From NCBI GenBank assembly GCA_021132495.1, contig GCA_021132495.1_4335.1: a stretch of 44,086 nucleotides of DNA. One strand, written 5' to 3'. How positions within the stretch are numbered: the first letter of the stretch is position 1; each line of letters starts with the position of its first letter. The position numbers were made by a program, and so were the translations under genes. The stretch is from a phage. Positions 626-43,125 of this stretch are shown here, one piece after another. The notes beneath the pieces are model-generated. The model made no database searches and was not told where the DNA came from. It worked only from the letters and a program-made list of their open reading frames with translations.

Positions 626-659
626 TTCTAAATTCCTTATGTCTCGTTCCGATAAGTGA

Positions 660-688
660 ATAGTATCCTATTATGTTGGGGTGTGCAA
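660..688 (-). promoter_or_regulatory. sigma70-like promoter TTGCAC-N17-TACTAT carrying the palindrome AATAG-gata-CTATT
   Basis: Reverse complement of 660-688 reads TTGCAC, 17-nt spacer, TACTAT; same motif as at 23616 and 33233. Confidence 0.45.
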
Positions 689-756: not shown

Positions 757-854
757 AAAGCCCACCCCAGCGGAGTGAAGTACTCTCTACCTTGCTTACG
801 GCAACTATAGAAACTTTTAATTATTAGTGACTTGGGTTATTTAGACGGGATTTA

Positions 855-998
855 CAATAGAGTATGGCCCTTCCGAATGCAGGCAGCGACACTACACTCA
901 GTGCTGACGCACCGCTCCGTTTCCTGCCGCACCGCGGTCGCTTGTTCATACTTCACAAGCTCAGGTGGAGCTTAGCACATTTCTTAGTAAAAGTCAAT
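855..998. repeat. copy A of a ~145-bp repeated intergenic element (second copy at 33024-33167)
   Basis: About 85% identical to 33024-33167 by hand alignment; conserved arms, variable centre; contains hairpin aagctc-aggtg-gagctt at 957-973. Confidence 0.8.
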
Positions 999-4257: not shown

Positions 4258-4277
4258 AAAGGGGCTTTAAGCCCCTT
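4258..4277. terminator. bidirectional intrinsic terminator (aaggggct-tta-agcccctt)
   Basis: Perfect hairpin between convergent genes 3939..4253 (+) and 4267..4482 (-), A/T flanks. Confidence 0.6.
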
Positions 4278-4482
4278 CACCTAACGCCAGCCACTTGGCG
4301 TCTACTTCCAGAACTTCCGCCAGTTTGAACAGCGTTGCCGGGCGGACGTCCTGAGTTACTCCAAGTGCCAGTTGGTTAATCGCGCCCTGGGAAACGCCGG
4401 TCAGGGCCGCCAAACGGCGCTGGGAGATGCCGAGTTCTTTACGGCGTTGTTCTACACGGATACCTAGTTCAGATGGTTGCAT
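4267..4482 (-). CDS. XRE-family HTH transcriptional regulator (Cro/CI-like)
   Basis: 71 aa; motif ISQRRLAALTGVSQGAINQLALG; RBS aaggag; transcribed divergently from the early operon. Confidence 0.8.
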   Translation of the reverse strand: MQPSELGIRVEQRRKELGISQRRLAALTGVSQGAINQLALGVTQDVRPATLFKLAEVLEVDAKWLALGEGA

Positions 4483-4502: not shown

Positions 4503-4531
4503 TTGATATGTGAATAGTACCATATTAATTA
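4503..4531 (+). promoter_or_regulatory. weaker promoter-like element TTGATA-N17-TAATTA with palindrome half-site variant (AATAG-tacc-ATATT)
   Basis: In the divergent control region between the XRE gene and the gene at 4604. Confidence 0.35.
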
Positions 4532-4546
4532 TTTTAGAAAAGCCCA

Positions 4547-4575
4547 TTGACATGTGAATAGTTCGCTATTATAGT
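4547..4575 (+). promoter_or_regulatory. sigma70 promoter TTGACA-N17-TATAGT with embedded palindrome AATAG-ttcg-CTATT
   Basis: Consensus -35 and near-consensus -10 at 17-nt spacing, about 30 nt upstream of the gene at 4604. Confidence 0.6.
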
Positions 4576-6910: not shown

Positions 6911-7110
6911 TTCAAGTAAATGAAATGCCCACAGATAAAGATTTTGTGATGATATGGCGCTGGGGCGGTTATATCCATTCGGAATCGTTTACGTTCCTGA
7001 ACGGCACGATGGTGCGATACAACCATGTGGAGGATGAATTCGAACCCGTTGATATGAATGATTTCGAGAACATAGTCCGTATTGCGAAATTTTATTTGAC
7101 ACCTGAATAG
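6907..7110 (+). CDS. hypothetical protein (67 aa)
   Basis: ATG at 6907 after RBS gaggagga, overlapping the upstream stop. Confidence 0.45.
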   Translation: MIQVNEMPTDKDFVMIWRWGGYIHSESFTFLNGTMVRYNHVEDEFEPVDMNDFENIVRIAKFYLTPE

Positions 7111-7124
7111 TTAGCTATTATAGT
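7096..7124 (+). promoter_or_regulatory. sigma70 promoter TTGACA-N17-TATAGT with embedded palindrome AATAG-ttag-CTATT
   Basis: Same architecture as 4547-4575; upstream of the gene at 7184. Confidence 0.6.
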
Positions 7125-23615: not shown

Positions 23616-23644
23616 TTGCACACCCCAATATAATAGTGTACTAT
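23616..23644 (+). promoter_or_regulatory. sigma70-like promoter TTGCAC-N17-TACTAT with palindrome AATAG-tgta-CTATT
   Basis: Near-identical to motifs at 660-688 (minus) and 33233-33261; about 40 nt upstream of the cassette. Confidence 0.5.
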
Positions 23645-23685
23645 TCACTTACACCAACGATGTTATCCCAAACAGGAGCTACACC

Positions 23686-23877
23686 ATGACGGGTATTACT
23701 ATGTTCTTCTTAATCATTATCGTTTTAGTTTATTTTATTCCATTTCTCGTGGCGCATATGCGCGACCATAAAGCGAAATTAGCGATATTCATGGCTAATC
23801 TGTTTCTTGGATGGGTTCTGCTGCCGTGGGTATTTATTTTAATCTGGGCTTGCAACTCGAATGTCAAAGAGAAGTGA
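23686..23877 (+). CDS. superinfection-immunity-like small membrane protein
   Basis: Two TM segments; motif ANLFLGWVLLPWVFILIWA recalls the Imm_superinfect signature; RBS caggag before ATG 23686. Confidence 0.65.
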   Translation: MTGITMFFLIIIVLVYFIPFLVAHMRDHKAKLAIFMANLFLGWVLLPWVFILIWACNSNVKEK

Positions 23878-32417: not shown

Positions 32418-32681
32418 CTATTCCAGAATATTCCTCACGTAATCCTGCAACATGAACACTTTCAGCCGCAGCTGCCGTACGCATTCAGCGTTCTGAACGT
32501 CGATAGCTAAATCCTCGTCAGCGTCGCTACTTGGCGCTGCCAGTTTGCACGGAGGCTGCATCATCGTCGTATCCGGTAATGGAATTAGCGTTTGCGACGG
32601 CGTGGGACTTGAGCAGGACGCGAGCATCGTCGAAAGTGCACACGCTGCGACCTGGCGTTTTAATGTATTTAACGACTTCAC
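32418..32681 (-). CDS. o-spanin (Rz1-like outer-membrane lipoprotein)
   Basis: Signal peptide with lipobox LASC, Pro-rich mature region; overlaps the i-spanin gene out of frame. Confidence 0.55.
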   Translation of the reverse strand: MKSLNTLKRQVAACALSTMLASCSSPTPSQTLIPLPDTTMMQPPCKLAAPSSDADEDLAIDVQNAECVRQLRLKVFMLQDYVRNILE

Positions 32682-32913
32682 GGGTAATCACATCTGATTT
32701 CGTCTTGCCTTCGTTGTCGGCGGCGGCGGCCTTTGATTCGTCCTGCTGCTGCCGTTGTGTTTTCTTAGCTAACTCAGCCTGTGCTTTTTGCTGTTGCTGC
32801 GAAACGAGATTAGCGCGGCCTTCGTGCCAGCCGCTGCGGTACTGATAAATGCCGTGTGTGTAAGCCAGGATGATGAAACATGCTCCTGCTACGACGGTTG
32901 CTTTAAGATTCAT
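32527..32913 (-). CDS. i-spanin (Rz-like)
   Basis: N-terminal TM segment, Gln/Ala-rich helical periplasmic domain, o-spanin ORF overlapping its 3' part. Confidence 0.6.
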   Translation of the reverse strand: MNLKATVVAGACFIILAYTHGIYQYRSGWHEGRANLVSQQQQKAQAELAKKTQRQQQDESKAAAADNEGKTKSDVITREVVKYIKTPGRSVCTFDDARVLLKSHAVANANSITGYDDDAASVQTGSAK

Positions 32914-33023
32914 GTTTCCCCTTTCTCGATAAGTAAAGCCCTGCCTTAAAGCAGGGCGCTAGTCCTTATCATTTAAACATAGAAACGGCGTAATCTCAGT
33001 AAACCAGTTACTTTTTACACAAG

Positions 33024-33167
33024 CAATAGAGTATGGCCCTTCCGAACGCGTCAGCGTAACTACACTCAGGACTTACGTCCCGCTCCGTTACCTGCCCGCG
33101 CCGCGGTCGCTTGTTCATACTTCACAAGCTCAGGTGGAGCTTATCACATTTTTAGTGAAAAGTCAAC
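33024..33167. repeat. copy B of the ~145-bp repeated intergenic element
   Basis: Aligned by hand to 855-998; same hairpin aagctc-aggtg-gagctt at 33126-33142. Confidence 0.8.
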
Positions 33168-33232
33168 TATTCGAATAGTTTATTCCAACATTTACAATTC
33201 GGTGGAATAACTGGAATACGTAAATAAATAGT

Positions 33233-33261
33233 TTGCGCACCCCAATATAATAGGGTACTAT
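33233..33261 (+). promoter_or_regulatory. sigma70-like promoter TTGCGC-N17-TACTAT with palindrome AATAG-ggta-CTATT
   Basis: Same motif family as 23616-23644; upstream of the lipoprotein gene. Confidence 0.5.
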
Positions 33262-33386
33262 TCATTCTATCGAACCGGGGAGGCCGTCACGTTAGTCGTT
33301 ATTTCAGTAGTAATTGCAGTTGATGCGGTGATGTTTCTTTGGGCTTGTAGTGGTATTGGTGACATTGACACGGGTAATGGTGAACT

Positions 33387-33731
33387 ATGAAATATATTAA
33401 ATTAGCAGTAGCAGGTGTTGTAGCCGTTTGTTTGAGTGGTTGCGTAAGGTCGTTGCCAGACCCAGCTTTACAGGTTTATCAGGCGGGGGATACAACGGCA
33501 ACATGTAATCAGTTACTATCGAGAATCGCCACGACAAAACAAGCTCAAGCCAACGCTACGCACCGTGTTAATAAGCAAATAGGTACTAACGTTGTACTCG
33601 GTGTTACAGGCGCATTCCTGATTGTTCCGCTGTTCTTTATGGACACGGGCGCCGGGCCTTCTATGGACGAGATGACAGCCGGTAATCGTCTGTCGCAGTT
33701 ACAACAAACATACGACGAGAAATGCAAATGA
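33387..33731 (+). CDS. lipoprotein with additional C-proximal hydrophobic segment (accessory gene)
   Basis: Signal peptide plus lipobox LSGC; opposite strand to the surrounding structural genes, with its own promoter and terminator. Confidence 0.7.
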   Translation: MKYIKLAVAGVVAVCLSGCVRSLPDPALQVYQAGDTTATCNQLLSRIATTKQAQANATHRVNKQIGTNVVLGVTGAFLIVPLFFMDTGAGPSMDEMTAGNRLSQLQQTYDEKCK

Positions 33732-33803
33732 CAAATAGTGTGATGTTTTATTTTGTTTTGTGGGTATCGGCTGCGGCTATCACCGCGATGTTCATATAAA
33801 AAT

Positions 33804-33826
33804 AAAGCCCCATAGCGGGGCTTTTT
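33804..33826. terminator. bidirectional terminator (aaagcccc-atagc-ggggcttt + T-tracts both sides)
   Basis: Between the plus lipoprotein gene and the convergent minus gene ending at 33828. Confidence 0.55.
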
Positions 33827-33827
33827 A

Positions 33828-34289
33828 TCATTCCGGCTTAGTAACCTTCGCCGCTTTACTGACGGCCTCTACCCCATCGGCATCAGTAACTTTAACGAAG
33901 TATTCGCCGACCGCATTAACCGTCAGAGACAGAGCCTCCTCAGGCGCATTCACCACTTCCTTACCGTCTTTGTACCAGGTCAGAGAATACGGCGCTTTGC
34001 CTACCTTAACCTCGACAGTGATGGTTGCGCTGCCGCCCGCCAGTTCAGCGTCCTGCGGTTGCGCAGAGAAATACACGTCGCCAGCGTCCGCCAGATACGG
34101 AATTTCATAAAGCATACCGGCGGCGGGCAACGCAATACCGGTTTTATCTGCAAACGGCATATCATCTACCGGTGTACCGAGTACACTTTCGTCCTCAATA
34201 AATACCACGTTCTCGCCAGAGCCAGACACGCGGGCGTACTGGACTACGCGACGAGACGGTACGTCAGTTACTTTGAAAAAGCCCATCAT
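33828..34289 (-). CDS. virion protein with C-terminal Ig-like domain
   Basis: TITVEVKVGKAPYSLTWYKDGKEV...GEYFVKVTDADG Ig-like strands. Confidence 0.45.
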   Translation of the reverse strand: MMGFFKVTDVPSRRVVQYARVSGSGENVVFIEDESVLGTPVDDMPFADKTGIALPAAGMLYEIPYLADAGDVYFSAQPQDAELAGGSATITVEVKVGKAPYSLTWYKDGKEVVNAPEEALSLTVNAVGEYFVKVTDADGVEAVSKAAKVTKPE

Positions 34290-35365
34290 TATTCCCCTTT
34301 CAGATAATCAGCAACACGTTTATCGAGTTCCGCCATCTGCTTAAGCGTGAGCGGATTCCCGAAACCATCTACAGATATTACGCGAAACTCTTCCGGCGAT
34401 ATACCGCTGTTACGGAAAATCTTACCTCGCACCGGGCCGAGCGCCTGGTCCTGAAACCACGCCGGTTGTTGTTTAAGGAACTCGTAGTAAGTGGTGTCTG
34501 CGCTTACCTGAGTGCCACCTTCCGCGCCTTTAGCCGCGCGTTTTGCGCCTTTATCGAGGAAGTCGAACTCTGAACTGATTACCGGGGCCGTGGTGCTTCG
34601 ACAATTCGGATGGGCTGGCGGCATCGGACCTTTACCGATTTCCCACGTCATTCCGTCTCTGGCCCTGCAAATCGTGCTGGTACGGCTGTCCAAAGTTGAC
34701 ACCCACTCATATTTCTCGATGATGTCGTCGTTCTGGCGGTACGTCTCGTTACGGGCCTCGTTGGATACGTGGGACAGCGCGGTGCGGATTACCGTAGTCG
34801 CGTTACGTTCTGAGATGTCGGCTAGTCCACCAGCGCCAACAACATTCTTAACAATCTGCCGTGTGGTTTGACCTTGCACAAAGCCCATCTTAACTCCAGT
34901 TACAAGACGTGCTACTTCCGTTTCACCCCATCCAGACATCAGCTTGGTGAAATCAACGGGCTTGTCGCTCAATGATAATGGTTGAAACTCGGCAGCGGCC
35001 CATACCTGCTCAGCGGTAGGCGTAACAAATTCCGCGTCTACGTTGGCGGTCAGTGTCTTTACGTTCCACTCAGCCTCATACGCCGCCAGTTCCTTAAGGT
35101 CTTCTGTCAGCTTTGTCTGCCAGTCGCCCGTAAGCCCCACCAGTGCTTCTTCAAGGTCGCGTAACAATTTATTCAGTCGGGCAGTGCTTCGCCCGTCGTC
35201 ACCGAATAACAGCACCTGCCGTTTGATTTCATCCCTTATCTCCTGAATGAACGGCGTGAGGTCTTTCACTTCACCGGATGCGGTGCGTTGCAGCCATATC
35301 TGGTGGCTGATTAGAGATGTAAGTAAGCTCATAGATAAACCCTGTGGCGCTAAAGTTAATAGCAT
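34289..35365 (-). CDS. head morphogenesis protein (Mu F / SPP1 gp7-like)
   Basis: 358 aa after the portal; conserved-looking segment PAHPNCRST. Confidence 0.65.
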   Translation of the reverse strand: MLLTLAPQGLSMSLLTSLISHQIWLQRTASGEVKDLTPFIQEIRDEIKRQVLLFGDDGRSTARLNKLLRDLEEALVGLTGDWQTKLTEDLKELAAYEAEWNVKTLTANVDAEFVTPTAEQVWAAAEFQPLSLSDKPVDFTKLMSGWGETEVARLVTGVKMGFVQGQTTRQIVKNVVGAGGLADISERNATTVIRTALSHVSNEARNETYRQNDDIIEKYEWVSTLDSRTSTICRARDGMTWEIGKGPMPPAHPNCRSTTAPVISSEFDFLDKGAKRAAKGAEGGTQVSADTTYYEFLKQQPAWFQDQALGPVRGKIFRNSGISPEEFRVISVDGFGNPLTLKQMAELDKRVADYLKGE

Positions 35366-35401: not shown

Positions 35402-36883
35402 TTACCGCTGAGCAGTGTCCTGTTGCTGCGCCGACTGCGGAATCTCTCCCTCTACCGGAGTAGCCCCGCCAATCGGCAGCGGCGCATCCTCGATAGCGTT
35501 CTGAATGTCCTCGTCCGTCCAGTCGGTTACACCAGCCTTACGCAATGCCGCGTAGTAAGCAGTAGCTGGTAACAGGCCCGCGTTAATGTCCGCCATCCAC
35601 TGAGAGCGGTCCTGAGCGGTCATCGGTTGCAGGAAGAACTCCATATTCAGTTTGAACTCAATCTCGGTGTCTTCACGCAATCCAAGCATCGCAGCAACCC
35701 AGCGCAACGCATCGGTGTACGCCATGCTTACATTACGCGCAATTGTCGCCATGACTGACGTATCTGCACCACGTTGCAGGCGGGCCGATTCTGCGGTGAT
35801 TTGCTGCGTCGGAGTGATAAGCTGCGCCCCAATCTGGATGGCCTGATTCTCTTTATCCAGCATGTTCTGCTTGGCGAGGTTGTTCTCTCCCGCCTGAACC
35901 AGAAACGCATTTCCGCCGTGACCGATGTTATGGCCAGAACGCGACCCCATGCGCACGCCGTGAGGGTTGGCTTCTTTCCATTGTTCCATGCTCATGTTCT
36001 CGCCTGGGGCGATGAACAACGTGGGCTGCCCTACAACGAAGCTGGATTCCTCATTGTCTGCGCTGTTGCGGAAATGTCCAATATTAAGCTCGGCTAACGG
36101 CAGCAAAGGCGCATCGTCAATGGTTGCATCATTGTTGCCCGCCCCAATGAACGTGAACGGGATTTTGCCGCGCAACTGTTCGCCAAGTTCCGGGAATATC
36201 TCTATTACTTCATCCTGTGCGCCACCTTCGGCGTCGAAGCGGTAAATGCGCTGGCGGTAGCGCCCGTCAATCAAATCGAGAACGCGATACTGCTCACCGA
36301 ACTTTGTTTCGAACTCTGAACCCGGTTCTGAGTATTCCCACACCTCGCGCAGCACGACCATCGTCACGCGGTTAACGGAACCAACGCGAGTTAGTCGCCA
36401 GTTGATGATGTTCTCTGCGGTATAGAAAGCGATGACCGGGTTTAATAATCCCGCGTTCTGTTCTGCCGCCGTTGCCGCGGCTGTCTCCGGGGCGTCCACC
36501 AGCAACCCGCCACGGCCCATCGAGTCAATCTCCATTAGCGTATCCTGCGCGTGCTGCCACAGGCCGACACCGGAACCATCAGCATTGCGCAACAGGTACT
36601 CAAGTTCAGGCGGGATAATTTGCTCAGGGTCTTTGCGCATGACGCTACCGACCATCCCTACCAGTGTACGTTTAGTGAAGTTGTAGCAGATAGCGCCGTT
36701 CTCGTATTCTTCCTGGCGCTGTGTAGCGTAGGTCGGGTCAGGTTCGTTCTTACCCACATTGCGCAGATAGCGAATAAGGTCGCCTTCCATAGCGTGGCGC
36801 ACCTTCTGCCATTTATCGAAGTGATGCAGCCATTCCCGGTGTTTTGTCTTAACACCCTGATTCTGACCGTTCATAGTTAACAT
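35402..36883 (-). CDS. portal protein
   Basis: 493 aa, directly downstream of the large terminase subunit. Confidence 0.75.
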   Translation of the reverse strand: MLTMNGQNQGVKTKHREWLHHFDKWQKVRHAMEGDLIRYLRNVGKNEPDPTYATQRQEEYENGAICYNFTKRTLVGMVGSVMRKDPEQIIPPELEYLLRNADGSGVGLWQHAQDTLMEIDSMGRGGLLVDAPETAAATAAEQNAGLLNPVIAFYTAENIINWRLTRVGSVNRVTMVVLREVWEYSEPGSEFETKFGEQYRVLDLIDGRYRQRIYRFDAEGGAQDEVIEIFPELGEQLRGKIPFTFIGAGNNDATIDDAPLLPLAELNIGHFRNSADNEESSFVVGQPTLFIAPGENMSMEQWKEANPHGVRMGSRSGHNIGHGGNAFLVQAGENNLAKQNMLDKENQAIQIGAQLITPTQQITAESARLQRGADTSVMATIARNVSMAYTDALRWVAAMLGLREDTEIEFKLNMEFFLQPMTAQDRSQWMADINAGLLPATAYYAALRKAGVTDWTDEDIQNAIEDAPLPIGGATPVEGEIPQSAQQQDTAQR

Positions 36884-40359: not shown

Positions 40360-40518
40360 TTTCCCAAAAACCCCTTTAGTTTTCAGATTATTGCGATAGA
40401 ACTGCATCACATGTTCATTATGGAAGTTACTCATCTTCTCTACTCCGTTCTCGTTGTCGATGAGGTAAATATAATAGGGTCGTAGATAATAGTCAACTAG
40501 TCATTACAGAAAATAGAT

Positions 40519-43096: not shown

Positions 43097-43125
43097 GTGT
43101 AAATGAATAGTAGCCTATTCTATCT
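43097..43125 (-). promoter_or_regulatory. sigma70-like promoter TTGCAC-N17-TACTAT with palindrome AATAG-gcta-CTATT
   Basis: Reverse complement matches the 660-688 motif including the adjacent gtgtgcaag. Confidence 0.45.

What the first reader, a model, noticed from the sequence alone, without database searches (positions are those of the whole stretch)
33233..33826. Stand-alone lipoprotein gene on the opposite strand inside the structural module
Gene 33387..33731 encodes a lipoprotein (lipobox LSGC) with an additional hydrophobic segment. It has its own promoter of the shared motif family and its own bidirectional terminator, and is antisense to the surrounding head genes. This is the typical layout of phage accessory lipoproteins that mask the receptor, such as T5 Llp or Cor-type superinfection exclusion proteins. 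Together with the Imm-like gene at 23686, the phage would carry two independent exclusion candidates.
Basis: inference. Interest (0 to 1): 0.5.

Follow-up and report, generated by a model that had tools for sequence, protein, structure and literature searches.

The report
Phage accessory lipoprotein of unstudied family

Summary
ORF 33387..33731 (+) encodes a 114-aa lipoprotein (lipobox LSGC, Cys19). It has its own promoter-like motif and a bidirectional terminator, and it lies antisense among head and lysis genes of a Kagunavirus. The cassette is a swappable accessory slot. Only 11 of 181 related phage records carry this cargo; others hold a 67-aa acidic protein, a methylase or an endonuclease between the same flanks.

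The protein shows no detectable similarity to Llp, Cor or SieA. It belongs to phrog_13472, part of a large uncharacterised family (1,464 clusters at 50% identity) with no Pfam or NCBIfam model. Covariation and AlphaFold2 indicate an antiparallel helical hairpin with invariant Cys40 and Cys113 in register. The near-invariant hydrophobic stretch NVxLGVTGAFLIVPLFFMD forms its tip, not a membrane-spanning anchor.

Context favours exclusion of incoming DNA. The same 35-nt promoter motif precedes the phage's Imm-family gene. The closest homologues sit directly after ejection gene 16 in P22-like prophages, where P22 has sieA. Against Llp/Cor-style masking, Kagunaviruses use glycan receptors. Some homologues are ordinary chromosomal genes or lie in two-partner-secretion operons. 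Function remains inferred.

The parts
33233..33264 (+). Promoter-like motif of the shared family (-35 TTGCGC 33233-38, 17-nt spacer, -10 TACTAT 33256-61, then TCA)
   Evidence: Three copies of the 26-nt pattern against 0 expected. Eight copies of the core against 0.22 expected. Alignment of the three sites shows about 35 nt conserved. The same motif flanks a different cargo in Bas70. fBC-Eco01 annotates a PHIRE 'phage promoter' here.
33289..33390 (+). Remnant of a 33-aa membrane-peptide ORF (MLVVISVVIAVDAVMFLWACSGIGDIDTGNGEL in relatives) overlapping the lipoprotein start (ATGA); its start codon is ACG here
   Evidence: ATG in 8 of 8 relatives, ACG in the window. Six of 9 substitutions fall at third codon positions. 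Annotated as a CDS in relatives.
33387..33731 (+). Lipoprotein gene, 114 aa, phrog_13472. Signal peptide plus lipobox 33387-33443 (Cys19 codon 33441-43); Cys40; hydrophobic hairpin tip residues 68-86 (33588-33644); Cys113
   Evidence: Among 9 phages there are 5 synonymous and 2 non-synonymous substitutions.
33722..33799 (+). Doubtful 25-aa hydrophobic ORF between the lipoprotein stop and the terminator
   Evidence: Listed. The only 3 substitutions among relatives are non-synonymous, including Trp to Arg in the hydrophobic core. Probably not a gene.
33804..33824 (.). Bidirectional intrinsic-terminator-like hairpin shared with the convergent portal / Mu-F / Hoc-like operon
   Evidence: Found on both strands, 8-9 bp stem with T-runs. 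Annotated on both strands in fBC-Eco01. Conserved in Bas70 around a different cargo.
23616..23877 (+). Second copy of the same promoter motif (23616-23647) driving the Imm_superinfect-family gene 23686..23877
   Evidence: Pfam PF14373 E = 9.5e-14. phrog_1039 'immunity to superinfection' E = 1.6e-23.

Best explanation
The cassette (promoter 33233-64, lipoprotein gene 33387..33731, terminator 33804-24) is an exchangeable accessory unit of a lytic Kagunavirus. It is probably transcribed by host RNA polymerase, independently of the surrounding late genes.

Its product is exported, lipid-modified at Cys19 and, having no Asp at +2, probably sent to the inner leaflet of the outer membrane. The mature part is an antiparallel two-helix hairpin about 35 residues per arm. 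Cys40 and Cys113 are in register at its base and probably form a disulfide. The near-invariant hydrophobic tip (residues 68-86) would dip into a membrane leaflet or bind a membrane partner.

The most likely job is to alter the infected cell's envelope so that DNA from a later-arriving phage cannot get in. That is superinfection exclusion acting at the DNA-entry step, alongside the co-regulated Imm-family protein, rather than masking of a protein receptor.

Shown: the gene, the lipobox, family membership, the hairpin register, the shared promoter motif and the genomic contexts. Inferred: lipidation, localisation, the disulfide, expression timing and the exclusion function itself.
For: (1) Real, constrained gene. 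phrog_13472 E = 1.2e-44. There are 1,464 clusters at 50% identity with E <= 1e-3. Invariant residues are C19, D35, C40, N68, G75, P81, D86, R101, L105 and C113.

(2) The same 35-nt promoter motif precedes this gene and the Imm_superinfect gene.

(3) Swappable cargo between the same promoter and terminator. Only 11 of 181 related records carry it.

(4) All enterobacterial homologues examined (39-42% identity) lie in P22-like or other podovirus prophages, directly after the ejection-protein genes and before the tailspike or tail-fibre gene. P22 has sieA exactly there, and no SieA homologue is present in the example checked.

(5) Other homologues lie inside a prophage early-left region (L010), after a prophage repressor (L032), beside tail-fibre genes (L037), on a plasmid (L006) and directly after traH-traG in a conjugative element (L007).

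(6) Hairpin structure. Thirteen of the 30 top covarying pairs have i+j = 148-156 (p about 1e-7), and C40 + C113 = 153. AlphaFold2 gives helices 40-72 and 93-112. Both Cys co-occur in 339 of 349 sequences.

(7) Not a host gene copy: no DNA match in 5,426 complete E. coli genomes.
Against: No experiment exists for any family member, and every source calls it 'hypothetical'.

Several homologues sit in ordinary chromosomal neighbourhoods with no mobile-element genes (L015, L016, L018). In 75 further genome loci there is no recurrent partner. The family therefore has a cellular role that need not be exclusion.

Rhizobium and Agrobacterium members lie inside two-partner-secretion operons.

The slot carries unrelated cargo in sister phages (methylase, endonuclease), so position in this phage says only 'accessory'.

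The promoter motif also precedes non-envelope genes: an XRE regulator and a 72-aa protein.

The structure model is only moderately confident (pLDDT 68, and below 50 in the hydrophobic tip).

The ICE context is a single case.
Confidence: 0.45

Rival explanations
1. Llp/Cor-type mask. An outer-membrane lipoprotein binds an outer-membrane beta-barrel from the periplasmic side. This inactivates it as a phage receptor or DNA conduit, which also protects progeny from debris.
For: The +2 residue after the lipid Cys is Val, and A, G or V across nearly all of the family, never Asp. By the E. coli sorting rule this predicts outer-membrane targeting. Rhizobiaceae members are encoded between an Omp85-type TpsB barrel gene and its TpsA substrate gene, which hints that the family can work with an outer-membrane barrel. 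The layout (own promoter, antisense) resembles T5 llp.
Against: There is no similarity to Cor beyond the signal peptide (E = 0.29), and Llp was not among the families listed at E <= 1. No Pfam hit. The gene is far from the tail-tip and tailspike genes (tail module about 14-23.5 kb). Kagunaviruses depend on O-antigen or capsule glycans, and no protein receptor is known (PMC11990801). P22-like phages, whose prophages carry the closest homologues, also use O-antigen.
Confidence: 0.12
2. An envelope-physiology factor with no role in exclusion. The phage borrowed a cellular lipoprotein that stabilises or remodels a membrane leaflet. It might be used to tune lysis timing, envelope integrity during infection, or vesicle or debris formation.
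For: Chromosomal, non-mobile homologues occur in many diderm lineages, including reduced-genome endosymbionts. The hydrophobic tip is extremely conserved across phyla, which fits a conserved lipid or core-machinery partner better than a fast-evolving phage target. The gene is adjacent and divergent to the Rz/Rz1 spanin genes.
Against: Most sister phages (170 of 181 records) do without it, so it is not part of the lysis programme. It is on the opposite strand and under a different promoter class from the spanins. In temperate phages it sits in slots typical of prophage-expressed conflict genes.
Confidence: 0.3
3. A unimolecular spanin-like tether: a lipoprotein anchored in the outer membrane with a transmembrane helix in the inner membrane, acting in lysis.
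For: An N-terminal lipobox plus a later hydrophobic segment is superficially the T1 gp11 architecture. The gene lies next to lysis genes.
Against: Covariation puts the two flanking helices antiparallel on the same side of the membrane. Only 17 hydrophobic residues are available. Flank charges are opposite to a stop-transfer anchor: +0.7 before and -2.7 after. Only 48 residues separate Cys19 from the segment. The phage already has Rz and Rz1. Hundreds of bacterial chromosomal homologues exist.
Confidence: 0.03
4. A hitch-hiking or decaying cargo with no function in this phage.
For: The upstream partner ORF has lost its start codon in this window. The cargo is rare among relatives.
Against: All family-invariant residues are retained. 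Substitutions among 9 phages are mostly synonymous, 5 versus 2. The promoter motif and terminator are intact.
Confidence: 0.07

Closest known systems
T5 Llp (FhuA-blocking lipoprotein)
   Same: A small lipoprotein of a lytic siphophage. It is encoded as a stand-alone, oppositely oriented gene with its own promoter. An exclusion role is proposed.
   Different: Llp was not among the four PHROG families listed at E <= 1 for this protein. The gene is not adjacent to the receptor-binding protein gene. The host receptor of Kagunaviruses is a glycan, not FhuA. The predicted fold is a helical hairpin with a hydrophobic tip.
Cor (phi80 / N15 / T1 / HK022) superinfection exclusion lipoprotein, phrog_1119
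   Same: A small phage lipoprotein and exclusion candidate.
   Different: The only match is the signal peptide (residues 1-37, E = 0.29), so it is not a member. Cor genes lie in tail-fibre regions and act on FhuA.
P22 SieA
   Same: The closest homologues of the window protein occupy the same slot in P22-like prophages, immediately after ejection gene 16 and before immI and the tailspike. SieA blocks DNA delivery by interfering with ejection proteins (PMC10883804).
   Different: SieA is a polytopic inner-membrane protein with no lipobox. The profile comparison shows no relationship (probability 0.1%). It is encoded on the opposite strand.
T4 Imm / Pfam Imm_superinfect (PF14373)
   Same: The phage's own Imm-family gene (23686..23877) carries the same 35-nt promoter motif, so the two are probably co-expressed.
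   Different: Imm proteins are small two-helix inner-membrane proteins. The lipoprotein has no similarity to them.
Lambda Bor / Ltp of TP-J34 / F-plasmid TraT (mobile-element lipoproteins)
   Same: Lipoproteins carried as accessory genes by mobile elements. Bor lies next to Rz/Rz1 as an antisense moron. Ltp blocks DNA injection. TraT, encoded after traG-traS, mediates surface exclusion. These comparisons rest on my own knowledge.
   Different: No Pfam match to any of these families. The architectures differ.

Membership tests
Bacterial lipoprotein (signal peptidase II substrate) | Basic n-region, hydrophobic h-region, lipobox [LVI][ASTVI][GAS]C within the first ~35 residues | tested here: met
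   K2 and K5, then LAVAGVVAVC, then L16-S17-G18-C19. The strict PROSITE pattern fails only because position -4 is Cys.
Bacterial lipoprotein (signal peptidase II substrate) | Lipobox Cys conserved in homologues | tested here: met
   Cys at the aligned position in 346 of 349 distinct family sequences.
Bacterial lipoprotein (signal peptidase II substrate) | Actual lipid modification and cleavage | not testable with these tools
   Needs globomycin sensitivity or palmitate labelling.
phrog_13472 / the uncharacterised lipoprotein family defined here | Full-length profile match and the signature D35, C40, N68-x(6)-G75-x(5)-P81-x-FFMD86, R101, L105, C113 | tested here: met
   E = 1.2e-44 over residues 3-114. 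All invariant columns are retained.
T5 Llp | Sequence similarity to Llp | tested here: not met
   The PHROG scan at E <= 1 listed only four families, and Llp was not among them. No direct pairwise test with the T5 sequence was run.
T5 Llp | Gene adjacent to the receptor-binding protein gene; target is a protein receptor (FhuA) | tested here: not met
   The gene lies between the Hoc-like and spanin genes. Kagunavirus receptors are glycans.
Cor | Profile match to phrog_1119 beyond the signal peptide | tested here: not met
   E = 0.29, residues 1-37 only.
P22 SieA | Sequence or profile homology; polytopic inner-membrane protein | tested here: not met
   hhalign probability 0.1%.
P22 SieA | Position between gene 16 and gene 9 of P22-like prophages | tested here: met
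   Met for the homologues P0007, P0173 and L027-L030, not for the window gene itself.
Moron / accessory cassette | Own promoter and terminator, orientation independent of neighbours, presence or absence polymorphism among close relatives | tested here: met
   GC is 0.41-0.49 in the cassette against 0.50-0.58 in the flanks. Promoter activity is not tested.
Unimolecular spanin (T1 gp11 type) | Lipobox plus a C-terminal membrane-spanning helix, with a periplasm-spanning linker | tested here: not met
   Covariation shows a same-side helical hairpin. The flank charges are inverted, and the hydrophobic run is only 17 residues and not C-terminal.
Superinfection exclusion protein (functional class) | Expression reduces infection by the same or related phages at adsorption or DNA entry | not testable with these tools
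   Only contextual evidence is available.

The most novel reading that the evidence does not exclude
The family is a previously unrecognised class of envelope 'gatekeeper' lipoprotein: a disulfide-stapled helical hairpin whose conserved hydrophobic tip engages a membrane or a conserved envelope machine. Lytic phages, P22-like prophages, conjugative elements and two-partner-secretion loci would all use it to block or control passage of macromolecules across the cell envelope. That would make it a new, widespread superinfection/entry-exclusion family, with a cellular ancestor of unknown role.
Probability: 0.25. Interest if true: 0.7.

Novelty: new variant of a known kind. Interest (0 to 1): 0.5.

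Why it matters
Few phage exclusion proteins have a known mechanism, and those known for Gram-negative siphophages (Llp, Cor) act on protein receptors. This candidate belongs to a phage that uses glycan receptors, and it is unrelated to either of them.

The family has more than 1,400 sequence clusters across many diderm phyla, yet has no Pfam or NCBIfam model and no known function. Its closest relatives occupy the sieA slot of P22-like prophages.

Because the cassette is present in some Kagunaviruses and replaced by other cargo in near-identical sisters (including the publicly available BASEL phages Bas70-76), a simple plasmid-expression and plating experiment could assign a first function to the whole family.

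For phage therapy cocktails, a carried exclusion gene would also matter in practice.

Tried and rejected
Searches that found nothing:
- Pfam, NCBIfam and PADLOC on the protein and on 13 diverse homologues gave nothing above threshold.
- A profile search of PDB sequences gave nothing (best E = 0.84).
- Foldseek of the better model against PDB and BFVD gave only generic helical hairpins (best E = 0.66), which are not informative.
- The afdb50 structure library was not available.
- Rfam gave no hit anywhere in the window.
- DNA searches of 5,426 complete E. coli genomes with the cassette and with a prophage homologue gave no match.

Models and analyses with limited yield:
- AlphaFold2 with 21 sequences gave pLDDT 60, too poor to use. 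With 103 sequences it gave pLDDT 68; the helices are usable but the hydrophobic tip is not.
- Clustering neighbour genes over 75 genome loci found no universal partner, only lineage synteny (pepA, lptF/G and minor pilins in Legionellales/Rickettsiella).

Annotations I set aside:
- The 'putative structural protein' label of HSE2 gp35 rests on annotation only; the paper reports no proteomics.
- The K-02 record annotates this stretch as minus-strand ORFs. I rejected that because the plus-strand frame has over a thousand homologues and a synonymous-biased substitution pattern.

Readings considered and rejected:
- u-spanin (see rival explanations).
- A simple transmembrane anchor (contradicted by covariation and flank charges).
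- A real downstream 25-aa gene (its only substitutions among relatives are non-synonymous).

Full report
**What is in the sequence.** The window is a Kagunavirus (Guernseyvirinae), an E. coli siphophage. The 1.4 kb around the finding is 94-96% identical to phages phiEc4, phiSD1, HSE2, SZH-1 and Golestan.

ORF 33387..33731 (+) encodes 114 aa beginning MKYIKLAVAGVVAVCLSGC. All flanking genes are on the minus strand:
- portal (35402..36883);
- Mu-F-like head morphogenesis protein (34289..35365, PF04233);
- Hoc-like decoration protein (33828..34289, phrog_3945);
- Rz-like i-spanin (32527..32913) with the embedded o-spanin;
- scaffold and major capsid.

A hairpin at 33804..33824 scores as an intrinsic terminator on both strands.

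**The promoter motif.** The 26-mer at 33233 recurs at 23616 (+) and 663-688 (-) with 3 or fewer mismatches, against 0 expected. Alignment shows about 35 conserved nucleotides. A looser core occurs 8 times against 0.22 expected.

It can be read as -35 TTGCGC/TTGCAC, a 17-nt spacer, and -10 TACTAT. The generic scan missed it because it matches too few consensus positions. Other copies precede an XRE-type regulator, a 72-aa protein and a small ORF. I infer host-polymerase, non-late transcription, but nothing here measures it.

The copy at 23616 lies 45 nt upstream of gene 23686..23877. That gene is a bona fide Imm_superinfect protein (PF14373, E = 9.5e-14; phrog_1039, E = 1.6e-23). The two envelope genes therefore share a promoter type.

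**The cassette is an exchangeable accessory unit.** Of 181 related phage records, only 11 cover the whole region. The others match the flanks only.

In Bas70 the same promoter motif and the same terminator enclose a different gene, a 67-aa acidic soluble protein. Other relatives carry a DNA adenine methylase, an endonuclease VII, or almost nothing in the slot. Position in this phage therefore says 'accessory cargo' and nothing more specific.

A tblastn search of 50,697 phage records finds the protein only in those 11 Kagunavirus records.

**Small ORFs beside the gene.** In 8 relatives a 33-aa membrane-peptide ORF precedes the lipoprotein gene and overlaps it by ATGA. Six of its 9 substitutions are at third codon positions, so it is probably a real gene. 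In this window its ATG is ACG.

A 25-aa hydrophobic ORF downstream (33722..33799) shows only non-synonymous changes among relatives, including Trp to Arg. It is probably not a gene.

The lipoprotein gene itself shows 5 synonymous and 2 non-synonymous differences among the 9 phages.

**What the protein is.** It matches phrog_13472 (unknown function) at E = 1.2e-44. The Cor family matches only at E = 0.29, over the signal peptide alone. Pfam, NCBIfam and PADLOC give nothing, and neither do ten diverse homologues in Pfam.

A profile search finds 1,464 clusters at 50% identity with E <= 1e-3, 713 of them at E <= 1e-10. A second search finds 1,047 clusters at 90% identity with E <= 1e-5. All are named 'hypothetical' or 'lipoprotein'. 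They span Alpha-, Beta- and Gammaproteobacteria, Legionellales, Rickettsiella, Wolbachia, Planctomycetota, Omnitrophota, Nitrospinota and Deferribacterales.

Invariant or near-invariant positions are C19, P26, Q32, G34, D35, C40, N68, L71, G72, G75, F77, P81, F83, F84, M85, D86, E94, A97, R101, L105, K112 and C113.

The 'additional hydrophobic segment' is thus the most conserved part of the protein (consensus NVALGVTGAFLIVPLFFMD). A mere membrane anchor would not be conserved in sequence like this.

**Architecture.** AlphaFold2 with 103 sequences gives pLDDT 68, with helices 40-72 and 93-112 and a poorly defined hydrophobic stretch.

I ran a separate mutual-information analysis on 349 sequences (effective number 253). 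It places 13 of the 30 strongest pairs on the anti-diagonal i+j = 148-156, where 7.8% is expected by chance (p about 1e-7). This means the two helices pack antiparallel, with the turn near invariant G75.

Cys40 and Cys113 sum to 153, so they face each other at the base. They co-occur in 339 of 349 sequences, which fits a periplasmic disulfide staple. N68 and K67 come opposite D86.

Only 17 hydrophobic residues lie between N68 and D86. Net charge is +0.7 before and -2.7 after the segment, the reverse of a stop-transfer anchor.

I therefore read the segment as the tip of a hairpin that dips into one membrane leaflet or contacts a membrane partner. Both ends of the protein would then be in the periplasm.

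The +2 residue is A, G or V in nearly all members and never Asp. By the established E. coli rule this predicts outer-membrane sorting. Localisation, lipidation and the disulfide are all inferences.

Fold searches and a PDB sequence search found nothing meaningful.

**Context of homologues.**
- The closest relatives (39-45% identity) are enterobacterial. Those whose context was examined are in prophages. In Citrobacter and Kluyvera P22-like prophages, and in IMG/VR contigs, the gene follows the ejection-protein genes (gp7, gp20 and gp16 homologues) by about 70 nt. It precedes the immI genes and the tailspike.
- In P22 itself that slot holds sieA (PMC10883804). The neighbouring gene checked in one such prophage is not SieA-like, and the family is unrelated to SieA.
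- Other members lie antisense in a prophage early-left region in Alcaligenes (L010).
- One follows an S24 repressor and another lipoprotein (L032).
- One lies next to tail-fibre genes and an invertase (L037).
- One is on a small plasmid (L006).
- One lies directly after traH-traG in a Seleniivibrio conjugative element, followed by restriction and BREX-type cargo. From my own knowledge, F-like plasmids keep their exclusion genes traS and traT after traG.

**Context that cuts the other way.** Members in a Nitrosomonadales genome and two other metagenome-assembled genomes sit among housekeeping genes.

Clustering of neighbours across 75 genome loci finds no common partner.

In 43 plasmid or chromid records, almost all Rhizobium, tblastn finds a family member. 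In the three records examined, the gene lies inside a two-partner-secretion operon, between the TpsB barrel gene and the TpsA haemagglutinin-repeat gene.

The family clearly has a cellular role. Mobile elements have recruited one branch of it.

**Interpretation.** The best reading (confidence 0.45) is an accessory envelope lipoprotein that blocks entry of later-arriving phage DNA. It would be expressed with the Imm-family protein. It resembles SieA, Imm or Ltp in the step it affects, not Llp or Cor.

Three things argue against the Llp/Cor reading: there is no detectable homology, the gene is not near the receptor-binding genes, and Kagunaviruses depend on glycans with no known protein receptor (PMC11990801). 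A weaker version survives at about 0.12, namely binding an outer-membrane barrel from the periplasm. The predicted outer-membrane sorting and the TPS link support it.

A non-exclusion envelope role inherited from the cellular homologues is the main rival (0.3). A u-spanin role is disfavoured by topology and by the presence of Rz/Rz1. Decay is disfavoured by conservation.

**Novelty and score.** Phage accessory lipoproteins and exclusion genes are known kinds. This one belongs to a different, uncharacterised and very widespread family with a distinctive predicted architecture. I rate it a new variant of a known kind, interest 0.5. The function is unproven, but a simple plating experiment with available sister phages would test it and could give a first function for the whole family.

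Noticed in passing
window 33289-33291: The 33-aa membrane-peptide ORF that precedes and overlaps the lipoprotein gene has ATG in all 8 sequenced relatives but ACG here. In this phage the peptide is probably not made, or this is a sequencing error.
   Followed up: partly
window 33020-33170 (-) and 835-985 (-); hairpin 32938-32957 (-): A ~150-nt element is duplicated on the minus strand. It has a TTGACT-type promoter-like site followed by a conserved leader containing a 36-41 aa 'MNKRPR...FGRAILYC' ORF. The copy next to the finding is followed by a terminator-like hairpin immediately upstream of the spanin/scaffold/capsid genes. It resembles a promoter-leader-terminator unit for late-gene antitermination. 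There is no Rfam match, and the RNA fold z-score is -2.3.
   Followed up: partly
window 4511-4572 (-), 7104-7121 (-), 40486-40503 (+), 43104-43121 (-), 657-674 (-): These are further copies of the promoter core ATAATAGNNTACTATTCA. Two tandem copies lie upstream of a 71-aa XRE-type regulator (4482..4267, -). One copy at 7104 (-) points into the 3' end of a plus-strand gene.
   Followed up: partly
slot between the Hoc-like and spanin genes in related phages (L002; hits H71, H75-H77): The same slot holds different cargo in sister Guernseyvirinae: a 67-aa acidic protein (Bas70), DNA adenine methylases (EM1, S123, ER23), an endonuclease VII (SETP13), or almost nothing (K1H). It is a hot spot for accessory genes.
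   Followed up: partly
L039 4953-5420, L040 4962-5414, L041 4959-5426: Rhizobium and Agrobacterium members of the family are encoded between a ShlB/FhaC-type TpsB gene and a haemagglutinin-repeat TpsA gene. In L039 and L041 an unrelated lipoprotein or hypothetical gene follows (the L039 one was translated and is a lipoprotein). tblastn found the family in 43 plasmid/chromid records, and three were examined. This suggests a link to two-partner secretion.
   Followed up: partly
L023 (phage K-02) and L021 (phage HSE2): The K-02 record annotates the cassette as five short minus-strand ORFs, which is very likely a miscall. HSE2 labels the lipoprotein 'putative structural protein' without proteomic evidence.
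   Followed up: yes
just after window 33834 (aligned position); L019 and L023: phiEc4 and K-02 carry a 16-nt duplication (GGCTTTTTATCATTCT-like) immediately after the terminator.
   Followed up: no
L028 6364-6837 (-), L012 8373-8812 (-), L004 8377-8559 (-): In P22-like prophages the family gene is followed on the other strand by further small membrane or lipoprotein genes of unknown function. This suggests a cluster of envelope accessory genes in the sieA region.
   Followed up: no
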